Shown piece by piece: positions 11,326 through 16,942 of a stretch of 64,000 nt of DNA (its first letter is position 1; each line of letters opens with the position of its first letter). This stretch comes from Spirillospora sp. NPDC127506 (GTDB lineage: Bacteria > Actinomycetota > Actinomycetes > Streptosporangiales > Streptosporangiaceae). The DNA is taken from NCBI GenBank assembly GCA_040302145.1, contig JBEORG010000021.1. One strand, written 5' to 3'. The notes beneath the pieces were generated by a model. It saw only the letters and a list, made by a program, of their open reading frames with translations, had not been told where the DNA came from and made no database searches. The translations under genes and the position numbers were made by a program.

Positions 11326-11566
11326 AACCGCCCCCTCGTTCCCCCGTGTCCCCCCCGGTACCTACCCACCGCCGTGCGGGGCGGGCCGGCGGGTGAGATG
11401 GGACACACCGGCGGCGGCGCCCGCGCGGCTTCGGGACCGTTCAAAAGCACAGGTCACGGGCGGGGCTTATCGTTTTCTGACAAACCGCACCGGAAAGGCG
11501 GGCCATGAATTCCCGGAAGGACTGTGCTAAAACCCGTCTGGGGTTCGGCGAAGCGGAGGGAACGCT

Positions 11567-12430
11567 ATGGGCGCGGCGGAGGCTCTCGCACAGGTGGCCG
11601 ACACGGACCGTTATCCGCTGACCGACCTGGACGGCGCCCGCCGGCGCGAGATCGTTTCCCGGACCCGGGACGAACTGGCGAAATCGGGGTGCTGCGTGCT
11701 GCCCGACTTCATTCGTCCCGCATTGCAGGAGGCGCTGCGCGCGGAATGCGCGGCGATCGCCCCGTCCGCCCATTATGACGTCGAAACGGTGAACGCCTAC
11801 AACATCGATGTCGGCACCCCATTGCCGGACGGCCATCCCGGGCGTATCACCGTCCAGCGGGGCAACGCGTTCGTCGCGCGCGACCGCATCCCGGCCGGGT
11901 CCATCGTGCACCGGCTCTATTCGAACGAGCTGTTCCAGCGGTTCGTGGCGAGCTGCTTCGGGCTGCCGCGCGTGCACGAGCTGGGCGACCCGCTGTCGGG
12001 GCTGGTCCTGAACGTGGTCAGGCCGGGGATGGAGCATCCCTGGCATTTCGACACCAACGAGTTCACCGTCAGCCTGCTCACGCAGGAGCCGGAGGAGGGG
12101 GGCGTCTTCGAGTACTGCCCGAACATCAGGACGGCGGAGCGGGAGAACTTCGCCGACGTCCGGGACGTGCTCACCGGGCGCGGCGACCGGTTCGTCCAGC
12201 GGCTCACGCTGCGGCCCGGCGACCTGCAGCTGTTCAAGGGGCGGTACTCGCTGCACCGGGTGAGCACGGTCCGGGGGGACACGGCGCGGCACACGGCGAT
12301 CTTCGCCTACAGCGAGCGCCCGGGGGTCATCGGCAGCGTCGCGCGGACGAGGCAGCTCTTCGGCCGCGTGCTGCCCGAGCACCTGGCGGCGGAGGGGCGC
12401 GCCGTCCGGGTCGACCGGTTGCTGGACTAG
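11567..12430 (+). CDS. Putative Fe(II)/2-oxoglutarate-dependent oxygenase (cupin fold, HxD...H)
   Basis: 287 aa. HPWHFDTNEF (HxD) and a distal His (LHRV), plus an Arg-containing C-terminal strand. Family assignment is by motif only. Confidence 0.5.
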   Translation: MGAAEALAQVADTDRYPLTDLDGARRREIVSRTRDELAKSGCCVLPDFIRPALQEALRAECAAIAPSAHYDVETVNAYNIDVGTPLPDGHPGRITVQRGNAFVARDRIPAGSIVHRLYSNELFQRFVASCFGLPRVHELGDPLSGLVLNVVRPGMEHPWHFDTNEFTVSLLTQEPEEGGVFEYCPNIRTAERENFADVRDVLTGRGDRFVQRLTLRPGDLQLFKGRYSLHRVSTVRGDTARHTAIFAYSERPGVIGSVARTRQLFGRVLPEHLAAEGRAVRVDRLLD

Positions 12431-12443
12431 GAGAGGCCGTTTC

Positions 12444-13253
12444 TTGCGCGTCGACACGACTGGGAAGATCTCGCTCGACCACATCTACACGCGGCCCGAC
12501 CCCCGCGCCTATTTCAGCACGCTCCGCGATCTCGACTACAACATCCCGGAACTGGCGAAACCGCATTTCCTGCGGCTCATCGCCGAATACCGGGAGGCGC
12601 GCCGGGTCGCCGTCCCGACCGTGCTCGACATCGGCTGCTCGTACGGCATCAACGCGGCCCTGGTGAAGCACGGCGCGACGATGGCCGAGCTGTACGATCG
12701 CTACAGCGGCCGCGACGCCCACCGGCGGACGCGCGCCGAACTGCTGGCCCGCGACCGGGAGCTGGTCCGTTCCGGTGAACCCGCGAACCGCGTCCGCTTC
12801 CTCGGCCTGGACGCCTCGGACGGCGCCCTTTCCTACGCGCTCGAGGCCGGTTTCCTCGACGGCGCCGTGCACGCCGACCTGGAAAGCGGCGAGCCGACCG
12901 GCGAACAGCGCGCGCAACTCGCCGCGACGGACGTGGTCATCTCCACGGGCTGCCTCGGCTATGTCACCGAACGCACCATTTCCCGGATCGTCGGCGCCTG
13001 CGCGGCCCGGCCGCCGTGGATGGCGCATTTCATCCTGCGCATGTTCCCCTTCGACCCGATCGCGGACGCCCTGGCCGCCGCCGGATACGAGACCGTCCGC
13101 CGCGACGGGCTGTTCCGGCAGCGGAGGTTCGCGACGCCGGAGGAGCAGGCGTCCGTCCTGGAGCGCCTCGCGGAGCTCGGGGTCGACCCGTCCGGCCTGG
13201 AGACCGGCGGCTGGTACTACGCGCAGCTCTACATTTCCCGCCCGCGCGGCTGA
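12444..13253 (+). CDS. Class I SAM-dependent methyltransferase
   Basis: 269 aa with a glycine-rich SAM motif (VLDIGCSYGINAA). It follows 11567-12430 with a 13-bp gap, suggesting an operon. Confidence 0.65.
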   Translation: MRVDTTGKISLDHIYTRPDPRAYFSTLRDLDYNIPELAKPHFLRLIAEYREARRVAVPTVLDIGCSYGINAALVKHGATMAELYDRYSGRDAHRRTRAELLARDRELVRSGEPANRVRFLGLDASDGALSYALEAGFLDGAVHADLESGEPTGEQRAQLAATDVVISTGCLGYVTERTISRIVGACAARPPWMAHFILRMFPFDPIADALAAAGYETVRRDGLFRQRRFATPEEQASVLERLAELGVDPSGLETGGWYYAQLYISRPRG

Positions 13254-13277
13254 GGCACCGACACAACGAGGAACGAA

Positions 13278-15071
13278 GTGAACGCCAGCGAAGAACTCTC
13301 GTCCCGCACCTTCGGCAACGAGGCGAGCCTGCCGCGCGTGCCGCTGCCCACGCTCGACGCGACCTGCGAGCGGTTCATGGAATGGTGCGGGCCGCTGCTG
13401 ACCGACGACGAGCGCGCCGAGACGGAGGCGGCGCTCGCCGAGTTCGCCCGCCCGGACGGCCCCGGCCGCGTGCTGCACGCGGAGCTCGAACGCTACGACG
13501 CGAGCGAGGGCGTGCACAGCTGGCTCGACACGTTCTGGCCGTACCGGTACCTCGGCCGCCGCGACCGGATCGCGTTGAACGCGAACTTCTTCTTCCTGTT
13601 CAAGGAGTCGCCGGAGGGCCAGGTGGAGCGCGCCGCCGGGCTCATCGCCGGGGCGCTGGACTACAAGCTGCGGCTGGACGAGGAGCGGATCCCGCCGGCC
13701 GTGCAGCGCGGCCGCCCGCTGTCGATGGCGCAGAACCGGTTCCTGTTCTCCACGACGCGCATCCCCGGCGCCGAGCAGGACACCGTCCGGGCGCCCTACA
13801 CCGACGCGTGGCCCGGCCCGTCCCGCGCCCGGCACATCGTGGTCTTCTTCCGCGGCAACATGATCCGGATGGACGTGCTCGGCCCGGACGGCCGCCCCCA
13901 CACGCTGGACGAGCTGCGGGCCGGTCTGGGCACGATCCTGAAGGCGGAGCCGGCCGCGGAGCCGTCCACCGGGCACCTCACGACCAAGGCCCGCGCCGAG
14001 TGGGCGGCGAGCCGCGACGCGCTGCTGGCCCTCGGCAACGAGAAGGCGCTCGACGAGGTTGAGACGGCGCTGTTCTGCGTCTGCCTGGAGGACTTCGCCC
14101 CGGTGAGCGCCCTCGACGCCTGCGACCACCTCCTCCACGGCGACAGCGGCAACCGCTGGTTCGACAAGGCCGTGTCGTTCATCGTGTTCGGCGACGGGAC
14201 GGCGGGCGTCAACGTCGAGCACTGCGGCCTGGACGGCACCACGATCCTCGGCTTCGTCGACACCCTGCTCGGCACGTCCCCCGAGGAGGCGTCCCGGCGT
14301 TCGGGCGCCGCGCCGCAGGGGCTCCCCGCCATCGAGCCGATCGAGTTCGCCCTGGACGGCGCCATGCGGCGGGACATCGAGGACGCCGCGGCCTCGTTCG
14401 CCGCCTACGCCGCCGCGACCGCGACGACGACCGTGTCGTTCGACGACTTCGGCGCCGACGAGGCCAAGCGCCTGAAGACGTCGCCGGACGCGTTCGTCCA
14501 GATGGCCTACCAGCTCGCCCACAAGCGGGCGAAGGGCCTCACCGGCGCCACCTACGAGTCGATCGCCACCCGCCAGTACCGGCACGGGCGCACCGAGGCG
14601 ATGCGCGTCGTCACCCCCGAGGTGCTCGACTTCGTCGCGGCCATGGACGACCCGGCGGCCGGTCCCGAGGCCCGCCGGGACGCCTTCCGCGCCGCCGCCG
14701 AGGCCCATGTCCGCCGCGCGAAGGAGTGCCAGGCCGGGCAGGCGCCCGAGCAGCACCTCTGGGAGCTGCAGCTGATCGCGAAGCGGCGCGGGGCCGAGCT
14801 CGGCGTCACCGAGCCGCTGCCCCTCTTCGACACGCCCGGCTGGCTGAAGATGCGGGACGACTACCTCAGCACCAGCTCGGCGCCGTCCGCCAACATCCGG
14901 TACTTCGGGTTCGGCTCGACGAGCGAGCAGTGCATCGGCGTCGCCTACGTCCTCCTCCCGGACCGCTTCAACCTGTACCTGAGCACCCCGCGGCCGGTCG
15001 CCGGCGCGATGCACGTGTTCGCCGACAGGCTCCGCGAGGCCGTCCGGGAACTCCGCGACCTCCTCTCCTGA
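13278..15071 (+). CDS. Choline/carnitine O-acyltransferase family protein
   Basis: 597 aa. VNVEHCGLDGT matches the catalytic His motif (EHSxxDG) of carnitine/choline acyltransferases. The length and the C-terminal STPR region fit the family. Confidence 0.65.
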   Translation: MNASEELSSRTFGNEASLPRVPLPTLDATCERFMEWCGPLLTDDERAETEAALAEFARPDGPGRVLHAELERYDASEGVHSWLDTFWPYRYLGRRDRIALNANFFFLFKESPEGQVERAAGLIAGALDYKLRLDEERIPPAVQRGRPLSMAQNRFLFSTTRIPGAEQDTVRAPYTDAWPGPSRARHIVVFFRGNMIRMDVLGPDGRPHTLDELRAGLGTILKAEPAAEPSTGHLTTKARAEWAASRDALLALGNEKALDEVETALFCVCLEDFAPVSALDACDHLLHGDSGNRWFDKAVSFIVFGDGTAGVNVEHCGLDGTTILGFVDTLLGTSPEEASRRSGAAPQGLPAIEPIEFALDGAMRRDIEDAAASFAAYAAATATTTVSFDDFGADEAKRLKTSPDAFVQMAYQLAHKRAKGLTGATYESIATRQYRHGRTEAMRVVTPEVLDFVAAMDDPAAGPEARRDAFRAAAEAHVRRAKECQAGQAPEQHLWELQLIAKRRGAELGVTEPLPLFDTPGWLKMRDDYLSTSSAPSANIRYFGFGSTSEQCIGVAYVLLPDRFNLYLSTPRPVAGAMHVFADRLREAVRELRDLLS

Positions 15072-15109
15072 GCGTGCCCTCCTGAACGTTCTCTCCTGAG
15101 CGCGGCCGG

Positions 15110-15685
15110 TCAGCGGCCCGGCCGGGCGGGCCGGTGGGTCCGCCCGGCCGGGTACAGCCAGCGGCGGAGCAGGCGGCTGAGCGCGGGCATGATGACCACG
15201 GTGAGCAGCGGGATCACGATCACCGGGAAGGTCAGCGCCTGCAGCGGCACCGGCCACGCCTTCGTCAGCGGCGTCGCGAACGCGTTCAGCAGCAGGCTCA
15301 GCGGATAGACCGCGCAGAACGTCACAATGATCATCTTCGCCTTGGACGGCGCCGGGACGGACTCCCCGGGCAGGTTGAACCACGTCTCCAGCCCGGTGGT
15401 GTCCTGGTGGTGCTCCTCGGCGATGCCGCGGAGCCGGCCGATCCACTCCTCGCGATCGGGCGACTCCAGCCACCGGTCCAGGCTGTCCTGGCCGGAGAAG
15501 TGCACGACCGTGTAGTAGCGGTGCCGGGACCCCTCGGCCCGCAGCCACGTGGCGCCCCGGTGCCCCGGGTGGCTCGTCGCGACCCGGTGGAGCCCTTCGG
15601 CCCACTCCTCGAAGTCGCGCTCCCGGCCGGGTTTCACGTCCCACGTGACCACGAGCGTGACGGCCTCGGCGTCCGTTTCCGTCAT
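15110..15685 (-). CDS. ABM (antibiotic-biosynthesis-monooxygenase)-like domain fused to a C-terminal two-helix membrane segment
   Basis: 191 aa. The N-terminal ~100 aa are ABM-like (VTLVVTWDVKPGRERDFEEWAEGL...YYTVVHF). The C-terminus is hydrophobic. Confidence 0.45.
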   Translation of the reverse strand: MTETDAEAVTLVVTWDVKPGRERDFEEWAEGLHRVATSHPGHRGATWLRAEGSRHRYYTVVHFSGQDSLDRWLESPDREEWIGRLRGIAEEHHQDTTGLETWFNLPGESVPAPSKAKMIIVTFCAVYPLSLLLNAFATPLTKAWPVPLQALTFPVIVIPLLTVVIMPALSRLLRRWLYPAGRTHRPARPGR

Positions 15686-15733: not shown

Positions 15734-16942
15734 TCAGGTGGCGGCGAGCGCCTCGGTGGGGCTGAGGCGGGACGCCCGGATCGCCGGGTACAGGCCGGCC
15801 ACCGCGCCGATGAGGAGGGTGGCCGCCATGCCGCCGAGCACCGCCCACGCGGGGATGACGACCGGCCACCCCTGGTAGGCGGCGTACCCGGCGGTGACGA
15901 GCGCCCCGGCGAACGCGCCGCCGATCCCGCCCAGCAGCGACAGCAGCAGCGACTCGGCGAGGAACTGGGTGCGGATCTGGCCGCGGGTCGCGCCCAGCGA
16001 GCGGCGCAGCCCGATCTCCGCGCGGCGCTCCAGCACCGAGATGACCATGGTGTTGGCCACCCCGACGCCGCCGACGAGCAGCGCGACCGCGCCGAGGCCG
16101 AGCAGCAGCCCGGTGAACGCCTCGCCCGCCGCCTTCTTCGCGGCGAGGGCGTCCGACGGCCGCGACACCTCCACCTCGTTCGGCGCCGCCGGGTTCGCGG
16201 TCGCGCCGAGCACCGCCCGGACGTCCTCGACCCGCGCGTCCGCCGACCGGGTGTAGATCGTCGTCGGATGCCCGTCGAAGCCGAGCCGCGACTGCGCCGC
16301 CGGCCAGCCGACCAGGGCGGCGGTGTCCAGCTCGGGGGCCAGCGGCACCGGCTCCAGGATGCCGATCACCGTGAAGAGGCGGCCCCCGACCAGCACCTGG
16401 ACGTCGGGCGCCGCGTGGCCGATGCCGAGGCGCTCCGCGGCGGCCGACCCGAGCACCACCGCCGGGAAGCCGCCGGTCGCGGTGTTCAGCCAGACGCCGT
16501 GGCTCAGCTCGGCCCCCGTCGCGTCGCGCAGGTCCGTGCGGGCCGCGTAGACGGCGATCCCGTTGGTCTCGGTCTTCGGGATCTTCGACGTCCGGTAGAC
16601 CTTCGCGTCGTCCACCAGGCCGATCGCCGACACCCGCCGCACCGGCGCGATGCGGGCCACCATGCTCTCGGCCTCGACCGGAAGCTGCGCCTTCTCCCCG
16701 GTGAGCGTGCTGCCGGGCGAGACCGTCAGCAGGTTCGTGCCGAGCGCGGCGAGCGCGCGGTCCAGGTCGGCGCGGGAGGACGAGGACACGCCGGCGACGG
16801 CGACCATCGCGGCGATCCCGATCGCGATGCCGAGCGCGGACAGGAAGGCCCGCAGCGGGCGGGTCCGCAGGCCGACCGCGCCGACCTTGACCACGTCGCC
16901 CGGCCGCAGCCGCGCGGGCCGCAGCGTGCCCGGCGCCGTCAC
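15734..16942 (-). CDS. ABC transporter permease, FtsX/MacB-like
   Basis: 402 aa. N-terminal TM, large periplasmic domain and C-terminal FtsX-like 3-TM bundle. Overlaps the ATPase gene by 4 bp. Confidence 0.85.

What the first reader, a model, noticed from the sequence alone, without database searches (positions are those of the whole stretch)
11567..15071. Three-gene cassette: 2OG-oxygenase-like + SAM methyltransferase + choline/carnitine O-acyltransferase-family enzyme
The three genes are tightly spaced on the same strand (11567-12430, 12444-13253, 13278-15071). Choline/carnitine acyltransferase-family proteins (catalytic motif VEHCGLDGT, cf. eukaryotic EHSxxDG) are uncommon in bacteria. Pairing one with a hydroxylase-type oxygenase and a methyltransferase suggests synthesis or tailoring of a small acylated, possibly quaternary-ammonium (carnitine/betaine-like), metabolite. 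The upstream divergent gene is a glycosylase-like protein and the downstream one an ABM-membrane fusion.
Basis: inference. Interest (0 to 1): 0.55.

Follow-up and report, generated by a model that had tools for sequence, protein, structure and literature searches.

The report
Hydroxylase–methyltransferase–acyltransferase operon, product unknown
Three adjacent genes in this Actinomadura genome (an iron-dependent hydroxylase, a methyltransferase-like protein and a bacterial relative of carnitine acetyltransferase) form a self-contained unit that stays together, is sometimes fused, and is shuffled in order across many bacteria, so they almost certainly make or process one small molecule that nobody has yet identified.

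Summary
Three real, tightly spaced, same-strand genes lie at 11567-12430 (A), 12444-13253 (B) and 13278-15071 (C).

- **A** is a BesD/HalD-family Fe(II)/2-oxoglutarate enzyme with an invariant HxD...H triad, so it is a hydroxylase, not a halogenase.
- **B** has a divergent class I SAM-methyltransferase fold.
- **C** is a full-length choline/carnitine O-acyltransferase family member with the catalytic His. The carnitine-carboxylate Arg (CrAT R518) is Gln and V569 is Thr. These changes are specific to this clade.

Functional linkage is strong:
- A is adjacent to C in 80/80 genome loci, and B in 75/80, while the flanking genes differ.
- B is fused to C in five lineages.
- Distant loci, including low-GC ones, keep the genes in other orders (A-C-B, C-A-B, divergent).
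- No other gene is conserved with them, and I found no literature on the cassette.

Best model (inferred, confidence about 0.4): A hydroxylates a small cationic amino-acid-like metabolite, B methylates it, and C O-acylates the new hydroxyl, probably with a short acyl group. The product would be carnitine-like but is unlikely to be carnitine. B is missing from about 15-20% of loci, so methylation may be accessory. I rate this a new variant of a known kind, of moderate interest.

The parts
11448..11533 (+). Conserved upstream DNA boxes that travel with the cassette: CACAGGTCAC (11448-11457), a T(G/C)ACAAA box (about 11478-11485), an (A/G)TGAAT box resembling a -35 element (about 11506-11511), and TGTGCTAAAAC (11523-11533), which resembles an extended -10 element and lies 44 nt before the ATG of A. 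I interpret this as a likely promoter/operator.
   Evidence: K-mer and spacing analysis of 81 upstream regions. TGTGCTA(A/G)A occurs in Actinomadura, Thermomonospora, Streptomyces, Amycolatopsis, Pseudonocardiaceae and Frankia loci. The spacing between the two main boxes is fixed at 75-77 nt in Thermomonosporaceae. RNAalifold finds 0 conserved pairs and Rfam gives no hit, so this is not a structured RNA. Promoter function is inferred, not shown.
11567..12430 (+). Gene A (287 aa): a BesD/HalD-family Fe(II)/2-oxoglutarate oxygenase of the hydroxylase type (H160-x-D162 ... H230, R241).
   Evidence: Pfam HalD, 57.4 bits. AF2 model with pLDDT 86. The top Foldseek PDB hits are HalB, HalD, BesD, the BesD hydroxylase homologue and HalA, with E 4e-14 to 1e-11, TM 0.6-0.7 and 16-18% identity. 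The HFD of A aligns with the HWG of the halogenases HalD and HalB. H160, D162, H230 and R241 are invariant in 23 orthologues.
12444..13253 (+). Gene B (269 aa): a divergent class I (Rossmann-fold) SAM-methyltransferase-like protein. The methyl acceptor is unknown. B is fused to C in some genomes.
13278..15071 (+). Gene C (597 aa): a choline/carnitine O-acyltransferase family enzyme with an intact catalytic apparatus and an altered acceptor pocket (CrAT R518->Gln492, V569->Thr548, M564->Phe543).
   Evidence: PF00755, E 6e-161. PDB matches: CPT2 8e-73, CrAT 1e-67, COT and ChAT. Across 80 loci: EHCxLDG 80/80, TYESIATR 79/80, GRTE 80/80, PEQHL at least 76/80, LSTS 80/80, and the YFGFG motif in all eight commonest gate variants, which account for 61 of the 80 loci.

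Best explanation
A, B and C form a self-contained operon that builds, and possibly reversibly acylates, one small metabolite derived from primary metabolism.

1. A, a BesD/HalD-family Fe(II)/2OG hydroxylase, installs a hydroxyl on an unactivated carbon of a small substrate that carries a carboxylate and is probably cationic and amino-acid-like. A lysine- or ornithine-type side chain hydroxylated on the carbon next to the terminal ammonium is the most economical guess. That is the regiochemistry of HalB and HalD, and it would recreate the N+-CH2-CH(OH)- motif found in carnitine and choline.
2. B methylates the same molecule. This is plausibly N-methylation, but the acceptor atom is not established.
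3. C uses its catalytic His to transfer an acyl group from acyl-CoA to the new hydroxyl. The acyl group is probably short (acetyl-sized), because a bulky Phe fills the chain-length gate. Family members catalyse near-equilibrium transfers, so C could also run in reverse and buffer acyl-CoA.

Shown here: the enzyme families, intact catalytic residues, the altered acceptor pocket of C, and the functional coupling of the three genes. Inferred: the substrate, the order of steps, the acyl chain length and the physiological role.
For: **Coupling**
- A is adjacent to C in 80/80 genome loci, and B in 75/80, with flanks that are not conserved.
- B::C fusions occur in 5 loci from Streptomyces, a Frankia symbiont, Pseudonocardiaceae and Gandjariella.
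- The B stop and C start overlap by 4 nt in 7 loci.
- The trio persists in other orders (A-C-B, C-A-B, divergent), at C identities down to 40%, and on contigs of 39-52% GC.

**A**
- HalD Pfam family, BesD/Hal fold, and an invariant HxD...H triad plus Arg.
- All of the closest solved relatives act on free lysine or ornithine (PMC10041140).
- The near-invariant R93 lies within one residue of HalB's carboxylate-binding Arg83.

**C**
- The catalytic His, the STS oxyanion motif, the Y/S/T cradle, the Phe equivalent to F566, and CoA-site residues K423/D430/E453 are all conserved.
- R518->Q and V569->T are specific to this clade, while nearly all other family representatives keep R and V. This points to a related but different acceptor.
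- Phe (or Trp) occupies the position that is Met in CrAT and Gly in CPT2.

**B**
- Class I methyltransferase fold with an intact motif I.

**Context**
- No PKS/NRPS gene or any other conserved partner is present, so the substrate must come from general metabolism.
Against: - No substrate, product or activity has been measured, and I found no literature on the cassette.
- A is only 16-18% identical to the Lys/Orn enzymes. The Asp that follows the HxG motif in the halogenases (HWGD) is Thr in A, so the substrate may not be a standard alpha-amino acid.
- B is missing from 5/80 genome loci and from 9 of the 29 A-containing metagenome loci with adequate flanks. Methylation therefore cannot be obligatory for C unless B is encoded elsewhere.
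- About 22% of well-flanked metagenomic loci have C without A. Some of these pair C with a CN_hydrolase (+/- DUF6282) instead.
- The short-acyl prediction rests on a single alignment column.
- The roles I assign to R518, M564, F566 and V569 are recalled from the CrAT/ChAT structural literature. I could not re-verify them in the searchable library.
Confidence: 0.4

Rival explanations
1. Catabolic or salvage module. The cassette takes up and processes an exogenous quaternary-ammonium or hydroxylated compound, for example a betaine or an acyl ester made by neighbouring organisms. C would run in the acyl-ester-to-CoA direction to harvest acyl-CoA, and A would oxidise the backbone.
For: Carnitine-family transferases are freely reversible (PMC11852590). 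A subset of Q-type C homologues sits next to hydrolytic genes (CN_hydrolase, DUF6282) and, in Microbacterium soli, next to ABC-transporter and SSF-transporter genes. B is dispensable in some loci.
Against: No transporter or catabolic regulator is conserved with the A-B-C cassette. A SAM methyltransferase, fused to C in five lineages, is atypical for a degradative route.
Confidence: 0.15
2. Cryptic leaving-group chemistry. Hydroxylation followed by O-acylation activates a C-H position for later elimination, substitution or cyclisation. This would parallel the cryptic chlorination used in BesD/HalB-type pathways, or the use of O-acetyl- and O-succinyl-homoserine. The ester would be an intermediate, not the end product.
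For: A belongs to the family whose halogenase members install cryptic leaving groups on amino acids (PMC10041140). O-acyl esters are established leaving groups in amino-acid metabolism (general biochemical knowledge).
Against: No PLP enzyme or other downstream enzyme is conserved next to the cassette in 80 genome loci or in the metagenome loci. This model gives the methyltransferase no obvious role.
Confidence: 0.15
3. Xenobiotic or antibiotic modification. The three enzymes detoxify or tailor an external small molecule by hydroxylation, methylation and acylation. C would act like chloramphenicol acetyltransferase, which shares the His-based acyl-transfer mechanism.
For: The cassette is standalone, patchily distributed and lies in variable genomic contexts, sometimes next to transposases. 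This pattern fits accessory functions. The upstream boxes suggest regulated expression.
Against: C retains the polar Y/S/T cradle and the aromatic Phe typical of sites that bind small zwitterionic acceptors. The closest solved relatives of A act on free amino acids. No efflux or resistance gene is conserved with the cassette outside the Actinomadura lineage.
Confidence: 0.08
4. Tailoring enzymes for a larger natural product whose core biosynthetic genes lie elsewhere in the genome.
For: Hydroxylase, methyltransferase and acyltransferase is a classic tailoring combination (general knowledge).
Against: No biosynthetic core genes are conserved near the cassette in any of the more than 100 loci examined. 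The cassette also occurs in unrelated genomes with different secondary metabolomes and on low-GC contigs.
Confidence: 0.05

Closest known systems
Eukaryotic carnitine acetyltransferase (CrAT), with CPT2 and COT (PF00755; PDB 1nm8, 1ndb, 2h4t, 1xl7)
   Same: C shows full-length homology (E 1e-67 to 8e-73). It shares the catalytic His in the E-H-x-x-x-(D/E)-G motif, the STS oxyanion motif, the Y452/S454/T465 cradle, F566, and CoA-site residues K423/D430/E453. A bulky residue occupies the acyl gate, as in the short-chain enzyme CrAT.
   Different: R518, the carnitine carboxylate clamp, is Gln. V569 is Thr and K419 is Ala. These changes define a bacterial clade. C is encoded in an operon with, or fused to, a methyltransferase-like protein and a hydroxylase. 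No eukaryotic counterpart of that arrangement is known to me.
BesD/HalA/HalB/HalD radical amino-acid halogenases and their hydroxylase homologue (PF23169; PDB 6nie, 7u6h, 7u6j, 7jsd)
   Same: A shares the Pfam family and has these enzymes as its closest fold matches. It has His ligands and a 2OG-binding Arg. A likely lid Arg for a substrate carboxylate is also present.
   Different: A has HxD (hydroxylase) where the halogenases have HxG, and is only 16-18% identical to them. The Asp after the metal motif is Thr. A also has a C-terminal extension of about 35 aa. Its substrate is unknown. NCBI's name 'halogenase' is misleading for this protein.
Eukaryotic carnitine biosynthesis plus the carnitine acyl-transfer system (trimethyllysine -> 2OG hydroxylases TMLH/BBOX -> carnitine -> acylcarnitine)
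   Same: The logic is the same: a methylated ammonium compound is hydroxylated by an Fe/2OG oxygenase and then reversibly O-acylated by a PF00755 enzyme. This is a comparison of what the system works like, based on established biochemistry.
   Different: The hydroxylase belongs to a different 2OG subfamily (BesD/HalD rather than TauD/BBOX-type). The aldolase and dehydrogenase steps are absent. The acyltransferase lacks the carnitine-specific Arg. All three genes are clustered or fused. Membership in the carnitine pathway is not supported.
Carnitine-acyltransferase (cAT) domains of fungal polyketide synthases
   Same: They are a precedent for PF00755 domains recruited into small-molecule biosynthesis with non-carnitine alcohol acceptors. 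I recall this from the literature; the domain is listed among fungal megasynthase domains in PMC8582187.
   Different: Those are C-terminal domains of fungal PKSs that release polyketides. Here C is standalone or fused to a methyltransferase, is bacterial, and has no PKS nearby.

Membership tests
Choline/carnitine O-acyltransferase superfamily (PF00755) | Full-length match to the two-domain family profile above the curated threshold | tested here: met
   537 bits against a cut-off of 22.3, profile positions 1-573 of 574. E 1e-55 to 8e-73 against solved CPT2, CrAT, COT and ChAT.
Choline/carnitine O-acyltransferase superfamily (PF00755) | Catalytic His in the E-H-x-x-x-(D/E)-G motif (CrAT His343) | tested here: met
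   VEHCGLDG aligns with the EH motifs of CPT2 and CrAT. EHCxLDG is present in 80/80 orthologues. The role of His343 is described in PMC11852590.
Choline/carnitine O-acyltransferase superfamily (PF00755) | Ser-Thr-Ser oxyanion motif and CoA-site residues (K419, K423, D430, E453) | tested here: met
   LSTS is present in 80/80 loci. K423, D430 and E453 are conserved, while K419 is Ala (alignment; residue roles).
Bona fide carnitine acyltransferase (CrAT/COT/CPT specificity) | Arg that pairs with the carnitine carboxylate (CrAT R518, 'DRHL') | tested here: not met
   This position is Gln ('PEQHL') in the window and in at least 76/80 orthologues. Nearly all more distant family representatives keep Arg. 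The role of the residue is recalled from the CrAT structural literature.
Bona fide carnitine acyltransferase (CrAT/COT/CPT specificity) | Tyr452/Ser454/Thr465 hydrogen-bond cradle for the acceptor | tested here: met
   TYESIATR in 79/80 loci and GRTE in 80/80.
Bona fide carnitine acyltransferase (CrAT/COT/CPT specificity) | Trimethylammonium pocket (F566, V569) | tested here: inconclusive
   F566 is conserved, but V569 is Thr in this clade only. The effect on ligand preference cannot be judged from sequence.
Bona fide carnitine acyltransferase (CrAT/COT/CPT specificity) | Measured acyl transfer to L-carnitine | not testable with these tools
   This needs an enzyme assay.
Choline acetyltransferase-type specificity | Loss of the carboxylate contacts (Asn in ChAT at the R518 position and Val at the T465 position; recalled from the literature) | tested here: inconclusive
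   C lacks the Arg, as ChAT does, but keeps Thr465, as carnitine enzymes do. I did not re-verify the ChAT residues with the tools.
HalD/BesD family (PF23169) Fe(II)/2OG enzymes | Family profile match above threshold, with a double-stranded beta-helix fold closest to BesD/Hal structures | tested here: met
   57.4 bits against a cut-off of 26. Foldseek top 41 hits are all BesD, HalA/B/D or their hydroxylase homologue, E down to 4e-14.
HalD/BesD family (PF23169) Fe(II)/2OG enzymes | Metal ligands and the 2OG-binding Arg | tested here: met
   H160, D162, H230 and R241 are invariant in 23 orthologues. H160 and H230 align with the HalD and HalB His ligands.
Radical halogenase (the functional subclass of the family) | Carboxylate ligand replaced by Gly or Ala (HxG/A), leaving a halide site | tested here: not met
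   A has H-F-D where HalD and HalB have H-W-G. D162 is invariant. A is therefore predicted to be a hydroxylase, not a halogenase.
BesD-family free Lys/Orn-binding mode | Lid Arg for the alpha-carboxylate and an Asp after the metal motif | tested here: inconclusive
   R93 lies within one residue of HalB Arg83 (PMC10041140). The Asp of 'HWGD' is Thr163 in A. Alignment at 17% identity is unreliable.
Class I SAM-dependent methyltransferase | Rossmann-type methyltransferase fold | tested here: met
Class I SAM-dependent methyltransferase | Glycine-rich motif I and acidic residues for SAM binding | tested here: met
   D62-I-G-C-S-Y-G68, D123 and D145 are invariant in 22 orthologues.
Class I SAM-dependent methyltransferase | Curated family HMM above threshold; measured methyl transfer and known acceptor atom | tested here: not met
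   Only sub-threshold Pfam hits were found (17 bits against cut-offs of 27-30), and there is no NCBIfam hit. Activity and the acceptor atom cannot be tested here.
Operon / functionally coupled gene cassette | Same strand with short gaps, conserved adjacency despite variable flanks, gene fusion, and linkage that survives rearrangement | tested here: met
   Gaps are 13 and 24 nt. Adjacency is 80/80 for A and 75/80 for B. There are 5 fusions. Orders seen include ABC, ACB, CAB and divergent.
Operon / functionally coupled gene cassette | Co-transcription | not testable with these tools
   No internal terminator or promoter was predicted, but transcript data are needed.

The most novel reading that the evidence does not exclude
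Many actinomycetes, and some low-GC bacteria, synthesise their own carnitine-like acyl carrier. This would be a side-chain-hydroxylated, variably N-methylated basic amino acid. A dedicated PF00755 enzyme would reversibly acetylate it, giving bacteria a previously unrecognised counterpart of the carnitine/acetylcarnitine system for buffering acyl-CoA, or a new class of acetylcholine-like small esters with signalling or osmoprotective roles. A sister clade that pairs the same acyltransferase with a CN_hydrolase and DUF6282 could be the consumer side of that metabolite.
Probability: 0.2. Interest if true: 0.8.

Novelty: new variant of a known kind. Interest (0 to 1): 0.55.

Why it matters
As far as I could find, bacterial members of the choline/carnitine acyltransferase family have no assigned function. 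This work defines a large clade with these properties:
- It is present in hundreds of species.
- Its acceptor pocket differs diagnostically from all carnitine-type enzymes.
- It is genetically locked to a BesD-family hydroxylase, and even fused to a methyltransferase-like protein.

That makes a compact three-gene target for discovering a new small metabolite and a new enzyme specificity. It would also add a hydroxylase with a possibly new substrate or regiochemistry to a family valued for C-H functionalisation. Finally, the analysis corrects misleading database names: gene A is labelled 'halogenase' or 'arpA protein', and gene C 'carnitine O-acetyltransferase'.

Tried and rejected
1. **Riboswitch or leader RNA upstream of A.** Rfam gave no hit at gathering threshold anywhere in the window. 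RNAalifold on 16 diverse upstream regions predicted 0 pairs. I rejected this in favour of DNA-level boxes.
2. **ECF-sigma promoter (GGAAC-N-GTC) upstream of CACAGGTCAC.** The motif is present mainly in Actinomadura. The spacing of about 14 nt is short, and it overlaps a GAACGTTC palindrome. This is unresolved and not used in the argument.
3. **Additional conserved partner genes (transporter, regulator, PLP enzyme, CoA ligase).** None was found by ORF clustering over 80 genome loci, or over the 40 non-Actinomadura loci. Pfam-annotated neighbourhoods also showed none. The window's own flanks (esterase, SpoIIE phosphatase, Pyr_excise, ABM-TM, MacB) are conserved only within the Actinomadura/Spirillospora lineage.
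4. **Literature.** Six searches for the cassette or for bacterial PF00755 enzymes returned nothing relevant.
5. **The 'arpA' label on A.** In the literature ArpA is the TetR-type A-factor receptor, so the label is a misnomer.
6. **Naming the proteins.** NCBIfam gave no hits for A, B or C, and PDB sequence search found nothing for B.
7. **Intrinsic terminators.** There is no credible terminator between the genes or after C.
8. **Halogenase function for A.** Rejected because of the invariant HxD.
9. **Coding status of the 1105-aa antisense ORF.** Rejected on codon-position GC.

Full report
**What is in the sequence.** The window has about 72% GC. Its gene C is 92% identical to that of Actinomadura latina, so the source is an Actinomadura. 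The gaps are 13 nt and 24 nt, and each start codon is preceded by a purine-rich ribosome-binding sequence. The pattern scan found no terminator between the genes (one weak terminator-like hit lies inside gene C and is within the number expected by chance) and no promoter anywhere in the region. GC3 is 0.93, 0.91 and 0.98. Two long antisense ORFs over the same DNA, one of 1105 aa, have GC3 of 0.66-0.71 with inflated GC1, so they are shadow ORFs.

**Gene C.** C matches the choline/carnitine O-acyltransferase profile end to end (E 6e-161). It also matches solved CPT2, CrAT, COT and ChAT structures at E 1e-55 to 8e-73. Residue-level alignments show the following:
- The catalytic His (VEHCGLDG against EHSWGDG/EHAAAEG) is in register.
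- The Tyr-Glu-Ser...Gly-Arg-Thr cradle (ATYESIATRQYRHGRTE) is conserved.
- The Ser-Thr-Ser motif, the Phe equivalent to CrAT F566, and CoA-site residues K423, D430 and E453 are conserved (roles of H343, K419, K423, D430 and E453 are from PMC11852590).

Three positions differ. The Arg of 'DRHL' (CrAT R518, which I recall from the CrAT structural literature as the partner of the carnitine carboxylate) is Gln ('PEQHL'). V569 is Thr. The chain-length gate, Met in CrAT and Gly in CPT2, is Phe. This signature is essentially invariant in 80 orthologues.

An exhaustive search of 1.84 billion representative proteins found 5327 family members. Tabulating the diagnostic columns shows that Q at position 518 and T at position 569 occur only in this clade and its nearer relatives (about 40% identity or more). 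Almost all other representatives, bacterial and eukaryotic, keep R and V. C is therefore a catalytically competent family member whose acceptor pocket has been specifically remodelled. It fails one defining feature of a true carnitine acyltransferase.

**Gene A.** A belongs to Pfam HalD. A confident model (pLDDT 86) is closest to HalB, HalD, BesD, HalA and the BesD hydroxylase homologue. All of these act on free lysine or ornithine (PMC10041140). Identity is only 16-18%. Where the halogenases have H-W-G, A has H-F-D. H160, D162, H230 and R241 are invariant in 23 orthologues. A is therefore a hydroxylase, and NCBI's names for it are misleading: 'HalD/BesD family halogenase' is wrong on function, and 'arpA protein' refers to the TetR-type A-factor receptor. 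A near-invariant Arg93 lies within one residue of HalB's carboxylate-binding Arg83. The Asp that follows the metal motif in the halogenases is Thr in A. The evidence for an amino-acid substrate is therefore suggestive only.

**Are the three genes one unit?** Yes, and this is the strongest result.
- In 80 genome loci from Actinomadura, Spirillospora, Thermomonospora, Streptomyces, Saccharopolyspora, Amycolatopsis, Gandjariella, Actinokineospora and a Frankia symbiont, A lies immediately upstream of C in 80/80. B lies between them in 75/80.
- The window's own flanking genes are conserved only within the Actinomadura/Spirillospora lineage.
- Clustering all ORFs showed that no other gene is conserved with the trio. 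Annotated neighbourhoods in S. erythraea, a Streptomyces and Thermomonospora share nothing else.
- In five lineages B is fused to the N-terminus of C, giving proteins of about 900 aa. The B part of the S. specialis fusion is 64% identical to the window's B.
- In seven loci the B stop overlaps the C start by 4 nt.
- In more distant loci the genes stay together in other orders: C-A-B (L089, L090; C only 40% identical in L090) and A divergent from C (L087).
- A metagenome scan adds further arrangements. Among 37 loci with at least 2 kb on both sides of C, 29 have A and 20 have B, in the orders ABC, ACB, AC, CAB, CA and two divergent forms.
- Some of these contigs have 39-52% GC, and their A genes are confirmed HalD-family members. 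The association is therefore not confined to Actinobacteria.

**Limits of the linkage.**
- B is absent from 5/80 genome loci and from 9 of the 29 A-containing metagenome loci with adequate flanks.
- C stands alone in 8/37 metagenome loci, in Naumannella and in Microbacterium soli.
- In some of these, C follows a CN_hydrolase and DUF6282 instead.
- Both locus sets were retrieved with clade-specific peptide patterns, so they describe this clade and not the whole family.

**How it most likely works.** The core pair is A plus C, so the simplest reading is hydroxylation followed by O-acylation of the new hydroxyl. B adds one or more methyl groups to the same molecule. No biosynthetic core genes accompany the cassette, so the substrate should be a common metabolite.

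Several points suggest a basic amino-acid-like substrate hydroxylated next to its terminal ammonium, which would give a carnitine- or choline-like N+-CH2-CH(OH)- motif:
- A's closest solved relatives bind free Lys or Orn and functionalise the carbon next to the terminal CH2-N+ (HalB at C5 of Lys, HalD at C4 of Orn; PMC10041140).
- C retains the polar cradle and the aromatic residue.
- C has lost the carboxylate-clamping Arg.

The Phe at the acyl gate suggests a short acyl group. All of this paragraph is inference. I put about 0.4 on the general scheme and considerably less on any specific substrate. The rival explanations are catabolism or salvage, cryptic leaving-group activation, xenobiotic modification, and tailoring of a distal natural product. 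They are listed separately with their evidence.

**Regulation (side observation).** The 240-nt region upstream of A carries discrete conserved boxes that travel with the cassette across genera. TGTGCTA(A/G)AAC lies 44 nt before the ATG and resembles an extended -10 element. An (A/G)TGAAT box sits 17 nt upstream of it. Further upstream are a T(G/C)ACAAA box and, in Thermomonosporaceae, CACAGGTCAC at a fixed 75-77 nt from the first box. There is no conserved RNA structure and no Rfam match. The boxes are therefore probably a promoter/operator for a regulator encoded elsewhere.

**Novelty and verdict.** I found no paper on this cassette or on any bacterial PF00755 enzyme of this clade. All three enzyme families are known, so this is not a new kind of system. 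What is uncharacterised is the combination: a clade-specific remodelled acyltransferase, a BesD-family hydroxylase and a fused or adjacent methyltransferase. Its product is unknown. I rate it a new variant of a known kind, of moderate interest (0.55).

Noticed in passing
window 11448-11533 (upstream of gene A): Conserved DNA boxes (CACAGGTCAC, T(G/C)ACAAA, (A/G)TGAAT, TGTGCTAAAAC) accompany the cassette across several actinobacterial families. Two of them keep a fixed spacing of 75-77 nt. In Actinomadura, CACAGGTCAC is preceded by GGA(A/C)CGTTCGAAGG, which contains a GAACGTTC palindrome. This is probably a promoter/operator for an unknown regulator that is not encoded nearby. It is not a structured RNA.
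   Followed up: partly
L086 4319-7788; L147 3073-6899; L146; L163/L164: A sister group of Q-type acyltransferases lacks A and B. Instead it sits directly downstream of a CN_hydrolase (nitrilase/amidase superfamily) gene, usually with DUF6282. In Microbacterium soli this group lies next to ABC-transporter, IclR and SSF-transporter genes. It could be a catabolic counterpart of the cassette.
   Followed up: partly
L126 (39% GC, from a 479-kb contig), L110, L091, L094: The hydroxylase-acyltransferase(-methyltransferase) trio also occurs on low-GC metagenomic contigs in rearranged or divergent orientations. The association therefore predates or crosses the actinobacterial lineage. I did not determine which organisms these contigs come from.
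   Followed up: partly
window 11567-12430 and orthologues (P0123, P0125 and others): Public annotation calls gene A 'arpA protein' or 'HalD/BesD family halogenase'. ArpA is a TetR-type receptor, and the invariant HxD motif marks A as a hydroxylase, so both names are misleading. JGI labels several B orthologues 'carnitine O-acetyltransferase', presumably carried over from B::C fusion proteins.
   Followed up: yes
window 12327-15644 (- strand) and 11441-12484 (- strand): Very long antisense ORFs (1105 aa and 347 aa) overlap genes A to C. Their codon-position GC (GC1 0.86-0.95, GC3 0.66-0.71) shows they are shadow ORFs typical of high-GC DNA, not genes.
   Followed up: yes
window 15110-15685 (- strand) and 15734-16942 (- strand): Downstream and convergent to C lies an ABM (antibiotic biosynthesis monooxygenase) domain fused to a hydrophobic C-terminal segment, followed by a MacB/FtsX-type permease. 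Both are syntenic with the cassette only within Actinomadura/Spirillospora, so they are probably unrelated to it.
   Followed up: partly
L088 6001-7848: In this metagenomic A-B-C locus, C matches the window protein in several tblastn pieces, and the A match spans two called genes. This suggests frameshifts, from either a decaying copy or assembly errors.
   Followed up: no
L154 4443-6818: The C open reading frame here extends about 190 aa upstream of the usual start, and the extension has no Pfam match. It could be a mis-called start or an unrecognised N-terminal fusion.
   Followed up: no
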